Shown here: positions 55,118 through 63,426 of the stretch, piece by piece
Layout: each line of letters starts with the position of its first letter
Numbering within the stretch: the first letter of the stretch is position 1
Virus record (IMG/VR): IMGVR_UViG_3300021400_000027
Location: 64,001-128,000 of that record
Strand: one strand, 5' to 3'
Source of the DNA: a virus
Lineage: Duplodnaviria > Caudoviricetes
Length of the DNA: 64,000 nt
Notes under the pieces: model-generated
What the model was told of the DNA's origin: nothing
Database searches by the model: none
What the model saw: the letters and a program-made list of their open reading frames with translations, nothing else
Position numbers and translations under genes: made by a program

Positions 55118-55186
55118 AAGACAGTTCAGCAACTCTTAAAAAAACATTAGCTTTTGGGGACTAATTAGTTTAAACGAAACTGTCTT
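55118..55186 (+). ncRNA. CAGCAA-stem RNA copy 1 (anticodon-loop-like cargo)
   Basis: AAGACAGTT-CAGCAA...AACTGTCTT; inner ATTAG/CTAAT hairpin with TTTGGGG loop. Confidence 0.7.
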
Positions 55187-55193
55187 GTTATTT

Positions 55194-55563: not shown

Positions 55564-55634
55564 AAGACAGTTCAGCAACTCTTTTTAAGAACATTAGTAT
55601 TTGGGAACTGATTAGTTTAAAATGAAACTGTCTT
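55564..55634 (+). ncRNA. CAGCAA-stem RNA copy 2 (Pro-type TTTGGGA loop cargo)
   Basis: Near-duplicate of copy 1. Confidence 0.7.
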
Positions 55635-55641
55635 GTTATTT

Positions 55642-55882: not shown

Positions 55883-55956
55883 TGCCCTGTGGACAAGTGG
55901 CTTAAGTTGGGAGTCTCTAAAACTCTAAGACCTCCGTTCGAATCGGAGCAGGGCAA
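55883..55956 (+). tRNA. Amber suppressor tRNA (CTA anticodon), Gln-type acceptor
   Basis: GGAGT-CTCTAAA-ACTCT with anticodon at 55917-55919; TGCCCTG/CAGGGCA acceptor like tRNA-Gln; own promoter at 55819-55847. Confidence 0.9.
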
Positions 55957-55963
55957 TCGAACT

Positions 55964-56018
55964 AAGACGGTTCAGCAACTCTATTTATTTGATATGTGGC
56001 TTCAAATTTCTCCGTCTT
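55964..56018 (+). ncRNA. CAGCAA-stem RNA copy 3 (His-type TGTGGC loop cargo)
   Basis: AAGACGG-TT-CAGCAA...CCGTCTT; inner TTTGA/TCAAA hairpin. Confidence 0.7.
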
Positions 56019-56116
56019 GAAAGTTCAAATCAATTAAAAATTTGAAATTTCTTTTAAAATTTGCTATAATATTTATAGTAAATGAGAAAGAAAGCCAAAT
56101 TGAAAGGAGCAAGCCT

Positions 56117-56820: not shown

Positions 56821-57033
56821 AAGACAGTTACAGCAACTTCACATAGAAAAGATATTTATTTAGTAAATTTAGTTTGTGGAGTTCTCCCGTGATGTGATAG
56901 GGAGAAAGAATTAAAGTTCGCACTCAACTATAAAGTGCAATAAAAATTTATTTTCGCCGTATAGGTGGCGGAGTTGTTTCGCCGCCGGCGGGTTTCCCTT
57001 GACCTTATAAGGAATTTAAATTTTAGCTGTCTT
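56821..57033 (+). ncRNA. CAGCAA-stem RNA copy 4 (~190-nt multi-hairpin cargo)
   Basis: AAGACAGTTA-CAGCAA...TAGCTGTCTT. Confidence 0.7.
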
Positions 57034-57036
57034 GCA

Positions 57037-57434
57037 TAGGTCGCCTAAATAAAGGCTTACCCTTTAAAGTTAAATTTATGCATGGTTTCAGGAAACCGAA
57101 AAATCCGAATCGAAGTTGAGCCGCCATTCAACTTCGTCCTGTGGCGGCAGGTTTTGAGGGTGGAGACCTTTTAAACTCCCGTTTGACGAACGTTATTAAA
57201 GTCTGACAGATGACATAATATTGCTCTAAATAGCCTCATCTAAGAATGGAATTTGAGCAGGTTAGAGTTTATCCTTAAAGCCAACCGGTTGAAAGTCCGT
57301 TGGACGGTAATAATCGTCCAAAGAATGGGAACTATTTGCTGACCTTCACGTGGTGTTTCTGAGTTTGGCTAACAGCAAAAAGTGATACTCGGCTTTATAG
57401 TTGAGAAAGTTATCCGAGTTAAACGCTTCTCAAC
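57037..57434 (+). ncRNA. Chain of compact pseudoknots and hairpins
   Basis: e.g. GAAGTTGA/TCAACTTC with loop GCCGCCAT pairing GTGGCGGC; ACTCGG/CCGAGT with GTTGAGAA/TTCTCAAC. Confidence 0.6.
57327..57379 (+). ncRNA. Minimal HDV-like (theta-type) self-cleaving ribozyme
   Basis: P1 GGGAAC/GTTTCT with G-U first pair, P2 TTTGCTG/CAGCAAA, P3 ACC/GGT, L3 TTCACGT, P1.1 TC/GA, J4/2 GCTAA. Confidence 0.78.
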
Positions 57435-57452
57435 AAAATTTATTAGATAGGA

Positions 57453-58037
57453 GTGATAACTTTGGTTGGAAATTGGGACATTAATGTTGTTGTAGGTAAG
57501 CTTCCGCAGAAAGTTGCTACTGCTTTTGCAAATCTTGGTGAAACAATTATTGGAGCAACATATACTCCAATTGCATATATTGGTTCACAGATTGTGAATG
57601 GAGTAAATCATGCGGTATTGGCTGAACAGACAATTATTACCGGCAGAGATACAAAGAATATCGTCTTAATTATTTTTAATGAAAAACCAGAGGGTGTTTC
57701 GTTAGTTAATATTGAGAGAGTTGTTGAAGGCGGTTTGGAACTCGGCGGAACAAAAATTGATGTAAAAACTGAAATTCCAGAAGATGCTCAGTCTGCATTC
57801 AATGAAGCAATTGGTAGCTTTGTTGGTTCTACAGTAGAACCCTTTGCATTAGTTGCAACTCAGGTTACAAAAGGTACGGACTACATCTTTGTAGCAACTG
57901 TTAAGCCTTTGGCACTTGAAGCAAAAGCAACTGTTGCTCTGGTTACGGTGAATACTCTTGAAAAGAGAATTTCCTTTATTGATGTGATTCAGCCGAATCT
58001 TAATAAAGCAAGTCTTGGATATGCTTTTACTTGGTAA
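57453..58037 (+). CDS. Hypothetical protein with internal domain duplication (start uncertain)
   Basis: Two repeats of LP..A..AF...G....P.A....Q.V.G.. Confidence 0.8.
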   Translation: MITLVGNWDINVVVGKLPQKVATAFANLGETIIGATYTPIAYIGSQIVNGVNHAVLAEQTIITGRDTKNIVLIIFNEKPEGVSLVNIERVVEGGLELGGTKIDVKTEIPEDAQSAFNEAIGSFVGSTVEPFALVATQVTKGTDYIFVATVKPLALEAKATVALVTVNTLEKRISFIDVIQPNLNKASLGYAFTW

Positions 58038-58134
58038 TAGGGAGATTAAATTCTCCCCTACCAATTAAAAATTTGAAATTTCTTTTAAAATTTGCTATAA
58101 TATTTATAGTAAATGAGAAAGAGATAAAAAAAAT

Positions 58135-58210
58135 AGCGGAGTGGAGCAGTTGGTAGCTCGCAAGATTCATTATCTTGAGGTCGTAGGTTCAAGTCCTGCC
58201 TCCGCAACCA
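58135..58210 (+). tRNA. tRNA-Met(CAT), initiator-like 1:72 mismatch
   Basis: CAAGA-TTCATTA-TCTTG; ACCA. Confidence 0.85.
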
Positions 58211-58217
58211 GCACTTA

Positions 58218-58347
58218 AAGATACGTACAGCAAACCACTTAGCTTAGGAATTTTAATCCCCGTGATGCAGGTTCGAGTCCTGTCTTTACAGTCTTTACTG
58301 TAAAGTAGCTTAATTGGCAGAGCAGGTAAATGCAAACAACGTATCTT
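58218..58347 (+). ncRNA. CAGCAA-stem RNA copy 5 enclosing circularly permuted tRNA-Lys(TTT)
   Basis: Order anticodon arm, T arm, acceptor hairpin CTTTACAG/CTGTAAAG, D arm; inside AAGATACGT/ACGTATCTT. Confidence 0.8.
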
Positions 58348-58354
58348 GTTAAAT

Positions 58355-58429
58355 GCCTCATTAGCTTAGATGGTCGAAAGCACCCGACTCTTAATCGGGG
58401 GAGCATGGGTTCAAATCCCATATGGGGTA
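58355..58429 (+). tRNA. tRNA-Lys(CTT)
   Basis: CCCGA-CTCTTAA-TCGGG. Confidence 0.9.
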
Positions 58430-58433
58430 CTAT

Positions 58434-58510
58434 GGCGGTGTAGTTCAGTAGTGTAGAACATCGGACTGTCACTCCGAAGGTCGCCGGTTCGAGTCCGGTC
58501 ATCGTCGCCA
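58434..58510 (+). tRNA. tRNA-Asp(GTC)
   Basis: TCGGA-CTGTCAC-TCCGA; GCCA. Confidence 0.92.
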
Positions 58511-58512
58511 TA

Positions 58513-58635
58513 AAGACACATCAGCAAAACAATTCTTTTGCATTGGGAGCATGAGTTAGAGGTTCGATTCCTCTATCCACGACCAAATTATACTGTGGAT
58601 TGGTGAAATGGTATCACGCATTATAAGTGTGTCTT
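58513..58635 (+). ncRNA. CAGCAA-stem RNA copy 6 enclosing circularly permuted tRNA-Pro(TGG)
   Basis: TGC-ATTGGGA-GCATG, T arm, ATCCACG-ACCA, linker, TGTGGAT, D arm; inside AAGACACA/TGTGTCTT. Confidence 0.82.
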
Positions 58636-58642
58636 GTATTTT

Positions 58643-58715
58643 GCTTCTGTAGCACAATTGGTAGTGCATCTCACTTGTAATGAGAGGGTTGTAGGTTCGA
58701 GTCCTATCAGAAGCT
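58643..58715 (+). tRNA. tRNA-Thr(TGT)
   Basis: TCTCA-CTTGTAA-TGAGA. Confidence 0.9.
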
Positions 58716-58719
58716 CTAT

Positions 58720-58793
58720 GCCGGTGTAGCTCAGTTGGTAGTAGCGTATGCCTGAAGAGCATAGCGTCAGAGGTTCGATTCCTCTCGCCGGCA
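58720..58793 (+). tRNA. tRNA-Phe(GAA)
   Basis: TATGC-CTGAAGA-GCATA. Confidence 0.9.
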
Positions 58794-58799
58794 TCAGTT

Positions 58800-58925
58800 A
58801 AGATTCGTCAGCAGAAGTATTTCAAAATTTACATACACCAAATGCCAGTATGTATGGTGTAACGGTAGCACACTCACCAGTTAAGTGAGAGGTAAAGGTT
58901 CAACTCCTTTGGCAGAACGAATCTT
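58800..58925 (+). ncRNA. CAGCAG-stem RNA copy 7 enclosing permuted tRNA-Asn(GTT)-like RNA
   Basis: TACATAC-ACCA, linker, GTATGTA, D arm, CTCAC-CAGTTAA-GTGAG, T arm; inside AAGATTCGT/ACGAATCTT. Confidence 0.8.
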
Positions 58926-58930
58926 GTTTC

Positions 58931-59002
58931 CGCCCTATCGTCTAACGGTTAGGACATCGCACTTTCTATGCGAAAATCCCAGTTCGAGTCTGGGTAGGGT
59001 GA
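58931..59002 (+). tRNA. tRNA-Glu(TTC)
   Basis: TCGCA-CTTTCTA-TGCGA. Confidence 0.88.
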
Positions 59003-59049: not shown

Positions 59050-59553
59050 ATGAATACTAAAAAATTTTATCGTGGTAATGGTCAAATCGTAACCTACGAT
59101 GGAATGATGAAAGTAATTGCAGACTACATCATGGAAGATACGAAAAGTGATTATGAAATCACAGTAGGCACAGATAGCCAAAACCATGACCTAACAAAAA
59201 TGGTTGAAGTTATCGCTGTACATCGTGTTGGAAAAGGTGGTATCTTCTTCTACAGAACAGAATATGTTCGTAAAATTCGAGTTTTAAAAGAAAAAATTGT
59301 TGAAGAAACATCTCGTTCTTTAGAGAACGCAGAGGGGTTATTAGATACAGTTCAACTTTATTTACTCGAAAAAGATATTGATATTGACAAACTCAATATT
59401 CATTTTGTAATTCATTGTGATATTGGTCATGCCGGCAAGACACAAGCACTTATTAAAGAAATTGTTTCTTGGGTTCAGTCTTGTGGTTATGAATGTCAGA
59501 TTAAGCCAGATAGCTATGCTGCGTCTGGTATTGCAAACAAAATTTCTAAGTGA
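59050..59553 (+). CDS. YkuK/DUF458 RNase H-like protein
   Basis: VGTDSQ, HR.GKGG.FF, ETSRSL, IH.DIG..G.T, IKPDSYAAS..A.K. Confidence 0.88.
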   Translation: MNTKKFYRGNGQIVTYDGMMKVIADYIMEDTKSDYEITVGTDSQNHDLTKMVEVIAVHRVGKGGIFFYRTEYVRKIRVLKEKIVEETSRSLENAEGLLDTVQLYLLEKDIDIDKLNIHFVIHCDIGHAGKTQALIKEIVSWVQSCGYECQIKPDSYAASGIANKISK

Positions 59554-59753: not shown

Positions 59754-59813
59754 AAGACGGTTACAGCAATCTTTAAGGATTTATTTGGTTCGATTCCAGA
59801 GGTTTTCCGTCTT
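59754..59813 (+). ncRNA. CAGCAA-stem RNA copy 8 (isolated T-arm cargo)
   Basis: AAGACGG-TTA-CAGCAA...CCGTCTT; inner TTTGG-TTCGATT-CCAGA. Confidence 0.72.
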
Positions 59814-59845
59814 GAAGATTTTATTTTGAAAAGGAGATAATCTAA

Positions 59846-60891: not shown

Positions 60892-61036
60892 AAGACACTA
60901 CAGCAAAACATTTCTAAATGGACTGTAAATCCGTTGGGGAAGTCCCTTCGTAGGTGCAAATCCTATCCTCGCCCACCAAAATATGGGCGAGTAGCCAAGT
61001 AGACAAAGGCGACGGACCATATATTAAAAGTGTCTT
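60892..61036 (+). ncRNA. CAGCAA-stem RNA copy 9 enclosing circularly permuted tRNA-Tyr(GTA)
   Basis: ATGGA-CTGTAAA-TCCGT, V arm, T arm, CTCGCCC-ACCA, linker, GGGCGAG, D arm, ACGGAC; inside AAGACACT/AGTGTCTT. Confidence 0.82.
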
Positions 61037-61041
61037 GAAAT

Positions 61042-61287: not shown

Positions 61288-61360
61288 AAGACAACTTACA
61301 GCAATTTAATTATATCGCCTTAAGTTTTTCCTGTACAGTGATATGTCAGGGTGTTGTCTT
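61288..61360 (+). ncRNA. CAGCAA-stem RNA copy 10 (pseudoknot-like cargo)
   Basis: AAGACAAC-TTA-CAGCAA...GTTGTCTT; ATATCGC/GTGATAT and CCTG/CAGG. Confidence 0.7.
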
Positions 61361-61369
61361 GATTTAATT

Positions 61370-61607: not shown

Positions 61608-63077
61608 ATGAGTTTTGTAAATCAGTTCAAAAGAATGTCCGATATGACCACCACTGAAAATGGAGGTCTGGCTTATAAGTCTACCGGCTCTGACCTTTTA
61701 TCTCTGTTCGCTAATATTGGCGGTATGAGAGATAGAAATGATAGCGATATTATTTCTGCTTGGAAACTCGCAAGAAAGGAAGATAAGCTGTTAGCAGATA
61801 ACCTTATTCTCTATTCTCGTGATATTCGTAATGCCGGACTTGGTGAGCGTAGAATTGGCAGACTCTTATTAAAAGAGCTTGCTATGGTTGACCCTCGTAA
61901 GGTAGAGCGTAATCTCCAGAAGATTGTCGATGCCGGCAGATGGGACGACTTGTTCGTATTTGAGGGAACTCCTGCATGGGATGAAACCGTTCGCTTTATC
62001 CAGAATCAGTTCCGTACTGATGTCAATGGAATGAAGAAGAACGAACCTATTTCTCTGCTTGCAAAGTGGCTTCCTTCTATTAACGCTTCTTCTGAAAAGA
62101 CTAAGCGTCTGGCTCGTACTTTCTGCACCTTGTTCAGCTTAACTCCTCGTACTTATCGTAAGAGCCTCTCCGCTATGCGTAAGTACATTGATGTAGTTGA
62201 ACGTAAGATGTCAGCTGGTCAGTGGAATGAAATTAACTTTGAAACTGTTCCTTCTGTTGCAATGTCTCGTTATATTGCAACCTACAATAAGCGTTGTCAG
62301 GAACGCTTTGCCGAATACAAGGCTTCCCTTGAAAAGGGCGAAGCTAAGGTTAATGCGGCAACTCTCTTCCCTTATGACATTGCTTTAAAGTTCATAGGCA
62401 ATTGTAATGGCTATGGTTGTAGATATACTCATCTGGATGCAGTTGATGAAGCACAGTGGAAGGCTCTGCCTAACTATGTTTCTGACGAGTTCGATGTAGT
62501 TGTAATGGCAGACGTATCCGGCTCTATGTACTCTTCTGATAGTCGTCCTATGGCAACTTCTATTGGTCTGGCAACTTACTTTGCTCAACGCAACAAAGGT
62601 GCATATCACAATATGTATTTAAGTTTCACTGACCGTCCTCATTTCATTACCCTGCGTGACGAGATGTCGCTGGAAGATTGCTTAAAATACGTGTTAAAGG
62701 AGGGTGTTGGCTACAATACTGACCTTGACCTTGCTTTTGAAGCTATCTATAAAGTGGCAAGCACTGCCGGAGAAGCACCTAAAGCTCTTGTCATTATTAG
62801 TGATATGGAGATTGATTCTTTCTGCGGAGAGAATTATGAATCCATTGCTCAAAAATGGCAGAGAATTTACGCTAAAGCTGGATTAACTGCTCCTAAGTTA
62901 ATTTGGTGGAATGTAGATTCCAGAGAGGGTAGAGTTCTCGCTCGTCAGGACGAGAATGTAGGATTTGTATCAGGTTATGGTGTCGGTCCGTTCAAGAATC
63001 TTCAATCTCTGATTGAAAAAGACGCTTATACCGCAATGGTAGAAATCCTCTCTCAGGACGCTTTCACTTGGAATTAA
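61608..63077 (+). CDS. DUF2828 / TROVE(Ro60)-like protein with C-terminal vWA domain
   Basis: TENG..AY.ST, RDIR..GLGER, GRWDDL, SLLAKWLPS, MIDAS DVSGSM, ISDME.D, WNV; ATG 61608 behind AAGGAG. Confidence 0.88.
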   Translation: MSFVNQFKRMSDMTTTENGGLAYKSTGSDLLSLFANIGGMRDRNDSDIISAWKLARKEDKLLADNLILYSRDIRNAGLGERRIGRLLLKELAMVDPRKVERNLQKIVDAGRWDDLFVFEGTPAWDETVRFIQNQFRTDVNGMKKNEPISLLAKWLPSINASSEKTKRLARTFCTLFSLTPRTYRKSLSAMRKYIDVVERKMSAGQWNEINFETVPSVAMSRYIATYNKRCQERFAEYKASLEKGEAKVNAATLFPYDIALKFIGNCNGYGCRYTHLDAVDEAQWKALPNYVSDEFDVVVMADVSGSMYSSDSRPMATSIGLATYFAQRNKGAYHNMYLSFTDRPHFITLRDEMSLEDCLKYVLKEGVGYNTDLDLAFEAIYKVASTAGEAPKALVIISDMEIDSFCGENYESIAQKWQRIYAKAGLTAPKLIWWNVDSREGRVLARQDENVGFVSGYGVGPFKNLQSLIEKDAYTAMVEILSQDAFTWN

Positions 63078-63319: not shown

Positions 63320-63366
63320 ACGATTCTTCAGCAGAATTGTTTCAAGAATTGAAAAAAAAGAATCGT
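63320..63366 (+). ncRNA. CAGCAG-stem RNA copy 13 (short hairpin cargo)
   Basis: ACGATTCTT-CAGCAG...AAGAATCGT; terminator-like hairpin follows at 63369-63404. Confidence 0.65.
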
Positions 63367-63426
63367 GAGGGAGTTGAACAATTAAAAAAGTTCAATTCCC
63401 TTTTGTAATTTTTAAGGGGTGATACT

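What the first reader, a model, noticed from the sequence alone, without database searches (positions are those of the whole stretch)
58218..58635. Two circularly permuted tRNAs (Lys-UUU, Pro-UGG) broken at the same point in the anticodon stem
Seen: both read anticodon arm, T arm, 3' acceptor strand, short linker, 5' acceptor strand, D arm. Joining the 2 nt after the D arm to the 3 nt before the anticodon loop rebuilds perfect 5-bp stems: GG+GGA pairs TCCCC (Lys) and CA+TGC pairs GCATG (Pro). The Pro copy keeps an encoded ACCA. Known: permuted tRNA genes matured through circular intermediates are described in some unicellular algae and an archaeon. Inference: either the handle is excised and ligated to give a functional tRNA, or the RNA stays intact as a tRNA mimic that, unlike YrlA, retains an anticodon loop. 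Standard tRNA finders would likely miss these.
Basis: partly seen in the sequence, partly recalled or inferred. Interest (0 to 1): 0.9.

Follow-up and report, generated by a model that had tools for sequence, protein, structure and literature searches.

The report
Phage Y-like RNAs mimicking permuted tRNAs
The two "scrambled" tRNA genes are real, but they are most likely not tRNA genes awaiting repair: they look like tRNA-shaped partner RNAs of a Ro60-like phage protein encoded next to them, a variant of the known bacterial Y RNA called YrlA that has kept an anticodon-type loop.

Summary
Window 58218-58348 and 58513-58636 each read anticodon hairpin, T arm, 3' acceptor strand, linker, 5' acceptor strand, D arm. 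Re-joined in silico, ARAGORN calls them tRNA-Lys(UUU) and tRNA-Pro(UGG). None of 150 control windows did this.

They are two of at least 10 plus-strand elements in the tRNA array of a 180-kb phage. All share one terminal "handle": a 7-10 bp covarying stem, an unpaired CAGCAA on the 5' side and a G after the 3' strand. The cargo varies: small hairpins, or tRNA bodies opened at 28/29 or 65/66.

A 489-aa DUF2828/vWA protein is encoded 0.3-6.5 kb downstream on the same strand. Its AlphaFold model matches Ro60 structures over its full length.

The same handle lies beside this protein's gene in Mycobacterium, Shigella/E. coli and Listeria phages. Helices and two elbow tertiary pairs covary, while the "anticodon" drifts among orthologues.

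Best reading (about 0.7): YrlA-type Y-like tRNA mimics bound by the Ro60-like protein, probably opened by RNase P at the acceptor loop. Splicing into working tRNAs is unlikely (about 0.07).

This is a new variant of a known kind. The scan has already met this CAGCAA/Ro60-like system in at least 37 other genomes.

The parts
58218..58348 (+). E1: handle RNA with a permuted tRNA-Lys(UUU)-like body. Handle 58218-26 pairs with 58339-47, followed by G 58348. CAGCAA lies at 58228-33. The anticodon stem is split 28/29.
   Evidence: Sequence. ARAGORN on the re-joined sequence. CM R1 83.3 bits. Rfam YrlA 31.6 bits over the full model. Folding z-score -2.7.
58513..58636 (+). E2: handle RNA with a permuted tRNA-Pro(UGG)-like body. 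Handle 58513-21 pairs with 58627-35, followed by G 58636. CAGCAA lies at 58522-27. ACCA lies at 58582-85 inside the acceptor loop. The anticodon stem is split 28/29.
   Evidence: CM R1 98.5 bits. Orthologues L006:714, L011:8382, L020:1796 and L024:8541 carry compensatory changes.
58800..58926 (+). E3: same handle, tRNA-Asn(GUU)-like body opened between the T arm and the 3' acceptor strand. ACCA lies in the acceptor loop. The loop is CAGTTAA, with A at position 33.
   Evidence: 98 re-joined variants, all called Asn-gtt. Rfam tRNA partial hit 58855-58910.
60892..61037 (+). E4: same handle, tRNA-Tyr(GUA)-like body with a long variable arm and ACCA. The 3' anticodon strand TCCGT can pair either with a local ATGGA or with ACGGA after the D arm.
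   Evidence: CM R1 48 bits.
55118..55187 (+). Short handle RNA with hairpin cargo. A near-identical copy lies at 55564-55635.
   Evidence: 36-38 bits.
55964..56019 (+). Short handle RNA
56821..57033 (+). 213-nt handle RNA with GC-rich hairpin cargo
59754..59814 (+). Short handle RNA whose cargo is a T-loop-like hairpin
61288..61361 (+). Short handle RNA just upstream of the Ro60-like gene
63320..63367 (+). Short handle RNA (ACGATTCTT / AAGAATCGT) downstream of the Ro60-like gene
61608..63077 (+). Gene for a 489-aa DUF2828 + DUF7788/vWA protein with a Ro60 fold, the proposed protein partner of the handle
   Evidence: Pfam and PHROG 850 'RNA-binding protein'. AF2 model pLDDT 89. Foldseek top 13 hits are all Ro60/TROVE structures, probability 1.0.
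58073..58101 (+). Sigma-70-like promoter (TTGAAA, 17-nt spacer, TATAAT, with TG) upstream of the operon tRNA-Met, E1, tRNA-Lys, tRNA-Asp, E2, tRNA-Thr, tRNA-Phe, E3, tRNA-Glu
   Evidence: Pattern scan only. The same module is repeated at 56042-56070.
59050..59553 (+). PF04308 RNase H-like ORF inside the array. It is conserved in this position in relatives; any role is untested.
   Evidence: Synteny in L046 and L048.

Best explanation
E1 and E2 are Y-RNA-like non-coding RNAs of the YrlA type. They are transcribed within a phage tRNA operon and released by the enzymes that cut out the neighbouring tRNAs.

Proposed fold and action:
- The two ends pair into a 9-bp handle carrying an unpaired CAGCAA. 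The neighbouring Ro60-fold DUF2828/vWA protein is proposed to bind this handle.
- The rest folds into an L-shaped tRNA body. Its acceptor stem is closed by a loop. Its anticodon stem is interrupted on the 5' strand between positions 28 and 29, where the handle emerges, leaving a 3-bp stub with a 7-nt anticodon-type loop.
- By analogy with M. smegmatis YrlA, RNase P probably cuts at the 5' acceptor strand. This would give a two-piece RNA with an NCCA 3' end, held together by the handle and the stems.
- The RNP would present a tRNA look-alike to tRNA-binding host or phage factors, within an RNA-repair or anti-defence module that also includes Rnl1 and Rnl2 ligases.

Shown here: the anatomy, the family, covariation of the helices and of the elbow pairs, the Ro60 fold of the protein, and the co-occurrence across phyla.

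Inferred: protein binding to the handle, RNase P opening, and the biological role.
For: Context in this genome:
- E1 and E2 share a handle with at least 8 other plus-strand elements of the array.
- In the whole 180-kb genome, every CM hit lies at 119118-125361 on the plus strand, directly upstream of the Ro60-like gene.
- The protein's model matches Ro60 structures, including the Ro60 of Thermus phage phiLo, over its full length.

The handle elsewhere:
- In 42 sources oriented on the protein gene, all 180 CM hits are on the gene's strand.
- In Mycobacterium phage Krypton555 the single whole-genome hit lies 104 nt after the 'Ro-like RNA binding protein' gene. In Shigella phage Sf18 the single hit lies 1.07 kb after the DUF2828 gene.
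- Listeria phage LMTA-148 has three stem-CAGCAA mini-elements directly upstream of its homologue.

Structure under selection:
- 84.6% of cells are paired, against 60% in shuffles and at most 49.5% when the partner is slid. 29 of 30 pairs change on both sides. The handle is 97.7% paired and the T arm 99.3%.
- The elbow pairs covary. G56 T-loops go with C19 D-loops, G55 T-loops go with A18, and one RNA (L046:2942) has both changes.

Link to YrlA:
- The Rfam YrlA model aligns over its full length to E1, and its core aligns to the Krypton555 element.
- M. smegmatis YrlA, which has a 7-bp acceptor stem, is cut by RNase P and receives CCA in vivo (PMC4201824).

Against decoding:
- Orthologues of E2 carry UGG, UGG, UUG, UAG or an 8-nt loop.
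Against: - No binding data exist; the protein-handle link rests on co-occurrence only.
- The YrlA signature motif GNCGAA is absent and the Rfam score (31.6 bits) is far below the gathering score (69).
- Pfam TROVE does not hit the protein.
- All 13 seven-nt loops I read keep U33 and a purine at 37, and NCCA is often kept. This could equally point to a real tRNA-like activity such as charging or modification.
- The handle joins the tRNA body at different places (26/27, 28/29, 65/66, or the acceptor ends), so there is no single fixed geometry.
- One homologue-bearing phage (Fusobacterium Fnu1) gave no handle hit.
Confidence: 0.7

Rival explanations
1. They are true permuted pre-tRNAs. The handle brings the halves together, a nuclease removes it, and a phage RNA ligase (Rnl1 or Rnl2) joins position 28 to 29. 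RNase P and 3' trimming then open the acceptor loop to yield working tRNA-Lys and tRNA-Pro.
For: - The re-joined sequences are good cloverleaves.
- ACCA is encoded after the 3' acceptor strand in E2, E3 and E4.
- U33 and R37 are kept in all 13 seven-nt loops read.
- Rnl2- and Rnl1-type ligases are encoded 2.4-5 kb beyond the Ro60-like gene, and this arrangement is conserved in relatives.
Against: - No bulge-helix-bulge and no conserved sequence at the junctions. Spacers between handle and body range from 0 to 17 nt.
- No tRNA splicing endonuclease and no RtcB in the genome.
- The break point differs between elements.
- The anticodon is not conserved among orthologues, and 8-nt loops and A33 occur.
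- Purine 32 is seen in 4 of the 13 seven-nt loops.
- Canonical Lys-UUU (two copies) and Pro-UGG genes are present. The permuted copies are no closer to them (65-69% identity) than to other tRNAs.
- Many family members carry no tRNA body at all.
Confidence: 0.07
2. The handle is a Ro-independent clamp, for example a processing or stability module of tRNA-operon transcripts. The tRNA-like cargos would act alone, for instance as decoys for anticodon nucleases or other tRNA-targeting defences.
For: - The elements occupy 'tRNA slots', 2-7 nt from the flanking tRNAs.
- Cargos carry loops of tRNAs known to be attacked by anticodon nucleases (Lys-UUU, Tyr, Asn). That link rests on my own knowledge of PrrC and colicin E5.
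- No binding evidence ties the handle to the protein.
Against: - The handle co-occurs with the DUF2828 gene, on the same strand and within a few kb, in phages of Actinobacteria, Firmicutes and Proteobacteria whose proteins are only about 30% identical.
- Single whole-genome hits lie next to the gene.
- A stem formed by the two ends plus a conserved unpaired 5'-strand motif is the known Ro60-binding layout (PMC4201824).
Confidence: 0.15
3. They are decaying leftovers of rearranged tandem tRNA genes and have no function.
For: The 3' half, NCCA, a short spacer and the 5' half are exactly what the junction of two tandem tRNA genes looks like. The YrlA model also hits ordinary tRNA-tRNA junctions weakly.
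Against: - Compensatory changes occur in every helix and in the tertiary pairs across many phages.
- CAGCAA is invariant.
- The break point and the handle are conserved.
Confidence: 0.03

Closest known systems
YrlA, the tRNA-like Y RNA of bacteria and mycobacteriophages bound by Ro60/Rsr (Rfam RF02553; Chen et al. 2014, PMC4201824)
   Same: - Encoded within a few kb of a Ro60-fold protein gene, on the same strand.
- The 5' and 3' ends pair, with a conserved motif on the 5' strand.
- The interior reads T arm, closed acceptor-like hairpin, D arm, which is the 'permuted tRNA' order.
- tRNA tertiary pairs are preserved.
   Different: - The motif is CAGCAA, not GNCGAA(N)G.
- The Rfam score is 31.6 bits against a gathering score of 69.
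- The protein is DUF2828, not Pfam TROVE.
- In E1 and E2 the stem leading to the handle branches off the middle of the anticodon stem and leaves a 7-nt anticodon-type loop, whereas in the Rfam YrlA consensus that stem runs on into the long terminal stem with no such hairpin.
- There are many copies per genome, embedded in a tRNA array, with exchangeable cargo.
M. smegmatis YrlA processing (PMC4201824)
   Same: A 7-bp acceptor stem closed by a loop. There, RNase P cuts it in vivo and in vitro, and CCA is completed, giving two Rsr-bound halves.
   Different: Here NCCA is already encoded (E2, E3, E4). Cleavage is only predicted.
Thermus phage phiLo Ro60 with Yrl1 and Yrl2 (PMC12135203; PDB 9KOP, 9L5Y)
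   Same: A phage-encoded Ro60 with partner RNAs encoded beside the gene. These structures are the best structural matches to the protein here.
   Different: The phiLo RNAs were picked by a CGAA motif and a stem-bulge-stem shape, and are not described as tRNA arrays. Sequence identity to the protein here is about 16%.
Bas63 gp130 (preprint 10.1101/2024.10.10.617714)
   Same: A Ro60-like phage protein next to a tRNA array. The authors guess that some 'tRNAs' there are Y RNAs, and gp130 counters the Ppl defence. Sf18, a phage of the same subfamily, has a CAGCAA-handle tRNA mimic in that array, conserved in 241 records.
   Different: No RNA was identified in that work. I did not verify that gp130 itself is a DUF2828 homologue.
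Circularly permuted tRNA genes of Cyanidioschyzon merolae and other algae and an archaeon; split tRNAs of Nanoarchaeum
   Same: The 3' half is encoded before the 5' half, and the re-joined sequence is a good tRNA.
   Different: None of these was found here, and the anticodon is not conserved.
Two-piece tmRNA from permuted ssrA genes
   Same: A bacterial precedent for a permuted tRNA-like domain that works as two base-paired chains.
   Different: No mRNA-like part. Rfam permuted-tmRNA models score only 10-19 bits.

Membership tests
YrlA / bacterial Y RNA (RF02553) | Encoded near a Ro60 orthologue and on the same strand | tested here: met
   E1 and E2 lie 3.0-3.4 kb upstream of the Ro60-fold gene at 61608-63077, on the plus strand. 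All genome-wide CM hits lie in this array.
YrlA / bacterial Y RNA (RF02553) | Terminal stem formed by the 5' and 3' ends | tested here: met
   9-bp handles. They are 97.7% paired across 30 sequences, and all 9 pairs show changes on both sides.
YrlA / bacterial Y RNA (RF02553) | tRNA-like domain in the order T arm, acceptor-like hairpin, D arm, with tRNA tertiary pairs | tested here: met
   Covariation at 19:56 and 18:55.
YrlA / bacterial Y RNA (RF02553) | GNCGAA(N0-1)G motif near the 5' end | tested here: not met
   By my reading of the sequences, E1 and E2 have no such motif. An invariant CAGCAA takes its place.
YrlA / bacterial Y RNA (RF02553) | Reaches the Rfam gathering score | tested here: not met
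   E1 scores 31.6 bits and the E2 core 16.5 bits, against 69.
YrlA / bacterial Y RNA (RF02553) | Bound by the Ro60 protein | not testable with these tools
   Needs RIP, CLIP or EMSA.
Ro60 / TROVE proteins (for the neighbouring gene) | HEAT-repeat ring plus vWA domain | tested here: met
   Foldseek matches 9kop, 9l5y, 1yvp, 2i91 and 9nfa: probability 1.0, TM 0.5-0.59, 520-565 aligned columns. Pfam VWA_2 hit is weak.
Ro60 / TROVE proteins (for the neighbouring gene) | Matches Pfam TROVE (PF05731) or a PDB Ro60 sequence | tested here: not met
   No TROVE match anywhere in the genome. phmmer against PDB sequences gave nothing relevant.
Circularly permuted tRNA genes (algal / archaeal type) | 3' half upstream of 5' half, and the re-joined sequence scores as a tRNA | tested here: met
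   0 of 150 controls scored.
Circularly permuted tRNA genes (algal / archaeal type) | Bulge-helix-bulge at the junction of leader and trailer | tested here: not met
   Judged by reading the sequences, not by a dedicated scan. In E1 a helix leaves the junction directly. In E2 the spacers are 17 nt and 6 nt. No conserved 3-nt bulges flanking a 4-bp helix were seen.
Circularly permuted tRNA genes (algal / archaeal type) | tRNA splicing endonuclease available | tested here: not met
   PF01974 is absent from the phage. The host genome is unknown.
Circularly permuted tRNA genes (algal / archaeal type) | Circular intermediate and a mature tRNA with a ligated junction | not testable with these tools
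   Needs RNA sequencing.
Circularly permuted tRNA genes (algal / archaeal type) | Anticodon conserved, as expected of a decoding tRNA | tested here: not met
   Orthologues of E2 carry UGG, UGG, UUG, UAG or an 8-nt loop.

The most novel reading that the evidence does not exclude
After RNase P opens the acceptor loop, these RNAs would be two-piece, CCA-ended, anticodon-bearing tRNAs tethered to a Ro60-like ring. They would then act as chargeable or cleavable baits. The ring would hold out a specific anticodon loop to host tRNA-targeting defences (anticodon nucleases) or to tRNA enzymes. It would couple that encounter to the neighbouring Rnl1 and Rnl2 ligases or to exonucleases, making a programmable tRNA-decoy and repair particle.
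Probability: 0.15. Interest if true: 0.85.

Novelty: new variant of a known kind. Interest (0 to 1): 0.6.

Why it matters
Ro60/Y-RNA particles are conserved from bacteria to humans, yet what the tRNA-like part of bacterial Y RNAs is for remains open.

- **A diverse natural series.** This phage branch has one constant protein handle joined to tRNA bodies opened at different points. Some keep an anticodon-type loop and an encoded CCA. This amounts to a natural mutagenesis series for asking which tRNA features matter.
- **Tractable model phages.** The same RNA is present but unannotated, or annotated as something else, in 241 cultured Felix O1-type phage records, and also occurs in Mycobacterium and Listeria phages. 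One such Ro60-like protein has been reported to counter a defence system. The question could therefore be tested in E. coli.
- **Annotation.** These loci should not be called tRNA genes or pseudogenes.

Tried and rejected
- blastn of 58100-59000 against cultured phages found only ordinary tRNA similarity.
- phmmer of the protein against PDB sequences found nothing relevant. Pfam TROVE, RtcB and the tRNA splicing endonuclease are absent from the genome.
- 'DUF2828' in the paper library returned only unrelated plant and animal papers. 'Permuted tRNA' plus 'phage' returned nothing on bacteriophages.
- The cut-and-rejoin ARAGORN screen cannot name the 'anticodon' when the break lies in the anticodon arm, because trimming creates artificial loops. 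I read the loops from alignments instead.
- My stem finder allowed at most 2 nt between stem and CAGCA, so it missed the Listeria elements, which have 3 nt.
- The automatic scoring of anticodon hairpins on the CM alignment mis-registers several rows, E1 among them. The hairpin-versus-CCA table (Fisher p = 0.06) is therefore only indicative. By my own reading of the alignment, all 12 NCCA-bearing elements keep a hairpin, and none of the tetraloop-closed, hairpin-less ones has NCCA.
- Fusobacterium phage Fnu1 gave only tRNA-dimer-like partial hits far from its homologue.
- I considered an RNase III site and rejected it because 9 bp is too short. That judgement rests on my own knowledge.
- I considered a terminator. 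The elements are followed within 4-7 nt by the next tRNA.
- I did not test whether the handle ever occurs without the protein gene.

Full report
**What is there.**
The window is bases 64001-128000 of a 179,787-bp, 34% GC virus record with terminal repeats. The record carries 27 tRNA genes and a tmRNA. Window 55.1-61.3 kb is a plus-strand tRNA array.

In the native order neither ARAGORN nor the Rfam tRNA model calls them. I joined 58299-58326 to 58247-58298, and 58594-58620 to 58539-58593. ARAGORN then calls a 73-nt tRNA-Lys(ttt) and a 74-nt tRNA-Pro(tgg) with perfect 5-bp anticodon stems. The same cut-and-rejoin pipeline gave no call on 150 random 125-nt windows of this genome. ACCA follows the 3' acceptor strand of the Pro copy at 58582-58585.

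**The two elements are not isolated.**
Each is closed by a 9-bp stem formed by its own ends (AAGATACGT/ACGTATCTT and AAGACACAT/GTGTGTCTT). An unpaired CAGCAA follows the 5' strand and a G follows the 3' strand.

The same handle closes at least eight more plus-strand elements of the array:
- short hairpin RNAs at 55118, 55564, 55964, 59754, 61288 and 63320;
- a 213-nt element at 56821;
- a tRNA-Asn-like body opened between the T arm and the 3' acceptor strand (58800-58926);
- a tRNA-Tyr-like body opened at 28/29 (60892-61037).

The elements sit 2-7 nt from the flanking tRNAs. A sigma-70-like promoter pattern at 58073-58101 lies upstream of the stretch from tRNA-Met through E3 to tRNA-Glu (pattern only).

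**The neighbouring protein.**
The ORF at 61608-63077 is 489 aa, with DUF2828 and DUF7788/vWA domains, and belongs to PHROG 850 'RNA-binding protein'. It gave a confident AlphaFold model (pLDDT 89). Its 13 best PDB matches are all Ro60/TROVE structures aligned over the full length. They include the Ro60 of Thermus phage phiLo and Xenopus Ro60 bound to Y RNA (probability 1.0, TM 0.5-0.59). Sequence methods do not see this: there is no Pfam TROVE hit and no relevant PDB sequence hit. Homologues in Mycobacterium phages are annotated 'Ro-like RNA binding protein'.

**The handle travels with this protein.**
I built a covariance model on 16 elements.
- It found 180 matches in 42 sources oriented on the protein gene. 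All lie on the gene's strand. Some low-scoring ones are ordinary tRNA-tRNA junctions.
- In this genome every match lies in the array upstream of the gene.
- In whole-record searches, Krypton555 (76 kb) has a single match, 104 nt after the Ro-like gene. Sf18 (90 kb) has a single match, 1.07 kb after its DUF2828 gene. Aeh1 has three matches on the gene's strand.
- Listeria phage LMTA-148 has three stem-CAGCAA mini-elements between a promoter-like sequence and its homologue.
- The Sf18 element is conserved in 241 cultured phage records. There it is mostly unannotated, sometimes covered by a 'hypothetical protein', and once called tRNA-Thr.
- Fusobacterium phage Fnu1 gave no handle match.

**Structure under selection.**
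On 30 matches, 84.6% of cells pair, against 60.2% in shuffles and at most 49.5% when the partner is slid. 29 of 30 pairs change on both sides. The handle is 97.7% paired, the T arm 99.3% and the inner anticodon hairpin 91%. The alignment was fitted to the model, so these counts lean towards the structure.

The split anticodon stem is kept by compensation. It is CA+TGC/GCATG here, CCG+GC/GCCGG in L006, L011 and L024, and CGT+GC/GCACG in L020.

The elbow pairs covary:
- T-loops with G56 go with D-loops that have C19 (L006, L011, L024).
- T-loops with G55 go with A18 (E4, L005:9618, L005:8854).
- L046:2942 has both changes.

These RNAs therefore fold like tRNA.

**Decoding tRNA or mimic?**
Evidence against decoding:
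- Orthologues of E2 carry UGG, UGG, UUG, UAG or an 8-nt loop, while G36-G37-A38 and the stem stay fixed.
- E3 has A33.
- The break lies at 26/27 in Sf18, at 28/29 or 29/30 in the E1/E2 type and at 65/66 in E3. Some relatives carry an unbroken cloverleaf inside the handle.
- Spacers between handle and body range from 0 to 17 nt, and I saw no bulge-helix-bulge.
- The phage has no splicing endonuclease and no RtcB.
- Canonical Lys-UUU (two copies) and Pro-UGG genes exist. The permuted copies are no closer to them (65-69% identity) than to other tRNAs.

Evidence that keeps the door ajar:
- All 13 seven-nt loops I read keep U33 and a purine at 37.
- NCCA plus a tRNA-spacer-like linker is frequent. 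By my reading it occurs only in elements that keep the anticodon hairpin.
- Rnl2- and Rnl1-type ligases are encoded 2.4-5 kb past the Ro60-like gene, an arrangement conserved in relatives.

**Comparison with the known.**
YrlA RNAs are encoded beside Ro60. Their ends pair, they carry a conserved 5' motif (GNCGAA), and their interior reads T arm, acceptor-like hairpin, D arm. M. smegmatis YrlA, which has a 7-bp acceptor stem, is cut by RNase P and gains CCA in vivo (PMC4201824).
- The Rfam YrlA model aligns over its full length to E1 at 31.6 bits, against a gathering score of 69.
- Its core aligns to E2 and to the Krypton555 element.

E1 and E2 therefore work like YrlA but fail two membership tests, the motif and the score. 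They also differ in keeping an anticodon-type hairpin at a three-way junction.

A preprint reports that a Ro60-like protein of phage Bas63, next to its tRNA array, counters the Ppl defence. Its authors guessed that some 'tRNAs' there are Y RNAs, but no RNA was identified (10.1101/2024.10.10.617714). Thermus phage phiLo Ro60 binds two neighbouring Y-like RNAs and host PNPase in vitro (PMC12135203).

I found no paper or Rfam family describing the CAGCAA handle.

**Earlier notes of this scan.**
They list the same family on this genome and report the CAGCAA/Ro60-like pairing in at least 37 other genomes, with the same reading. I had formed my reading before opening them.

**Verdict.**
The best reading is a YrlA-type tRNA mimic serving a Ro60-like phage protein (about 0.7). 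The splicing model is unlikely (about 0.07). This is a new variant of a known kind, of moderate to high interest because it can be tested in model phages.

Noticed in passing
window 55883-55956: ARAGORN calls a tRNA with anticodon CTA (an amber suppressor, labelled 'Pyl'). I only used TAG=Q when listing ORFs.
   Followed up: partly
G000:C1 129476-130399 and 131147-132268 (1.5-4.3 kb beyond the window end): Rnl2-type (PF09414) and Rnl1-type (PF09511) RNA ligase genes lie downstream of the Ro60-like gene. The order RNase H-like, then Ro60-like, then ligase genes downstream recurs across relatives L046-L048, each of which shows part of it.
   Followed up: partly
window 57034-57452: About 420 nt of GC-enriched, hairpin-rich sequence with no ORF lies between the 213-nt handle element and the ORF at 57453. 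No Rfam match at E <= 10.
   Followed up: no
L040:6460-7011 (Listeria phage LMTA-148): A ROOL RNA match (90 bits, gathering score 99) sits among the tRNAs about 1 kb upstream of the Ro60-like gene.
   Followed up: no
L045:8067-8272 (Aeromonas phage Aeh1): The annotated 122-nt 'tRNA-Val' overlaps a handle-model hit. A tRNA 5' half and a distant T arm with its 3' acceptor strand are separated by handle-like sequence, and the motif reads CCTGCAA instead of CAGCAA.
   Followed up: no
window 60892-61037 and L005:9618-9763: In the Tyr-like elements the 3' anticodon strand TCCGT can pair either with a local 5' strand (giving a complete hairpin) or with an identical-function strand after the D arm. 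This may be a two-state switch.
   Followed up: partly
window 56042-56070 and 58073-58101: A promoter module of roughly 50 nt (TTGAAA, 17-nt spacer, TGCTATAAT, plus flanks) is repeated almost exactly in front of two sub-operons of the array.
   Followed up: no
L001:7167-7282, L004:8010-8128, L012:8692-8810, L005:7393-7501: In these relatives the handle encloses an unpermuted cloverleaf (Leu-UAA-like or Cys-ACA-like) and simply extends the acceptor ends.
   Followed up: partly
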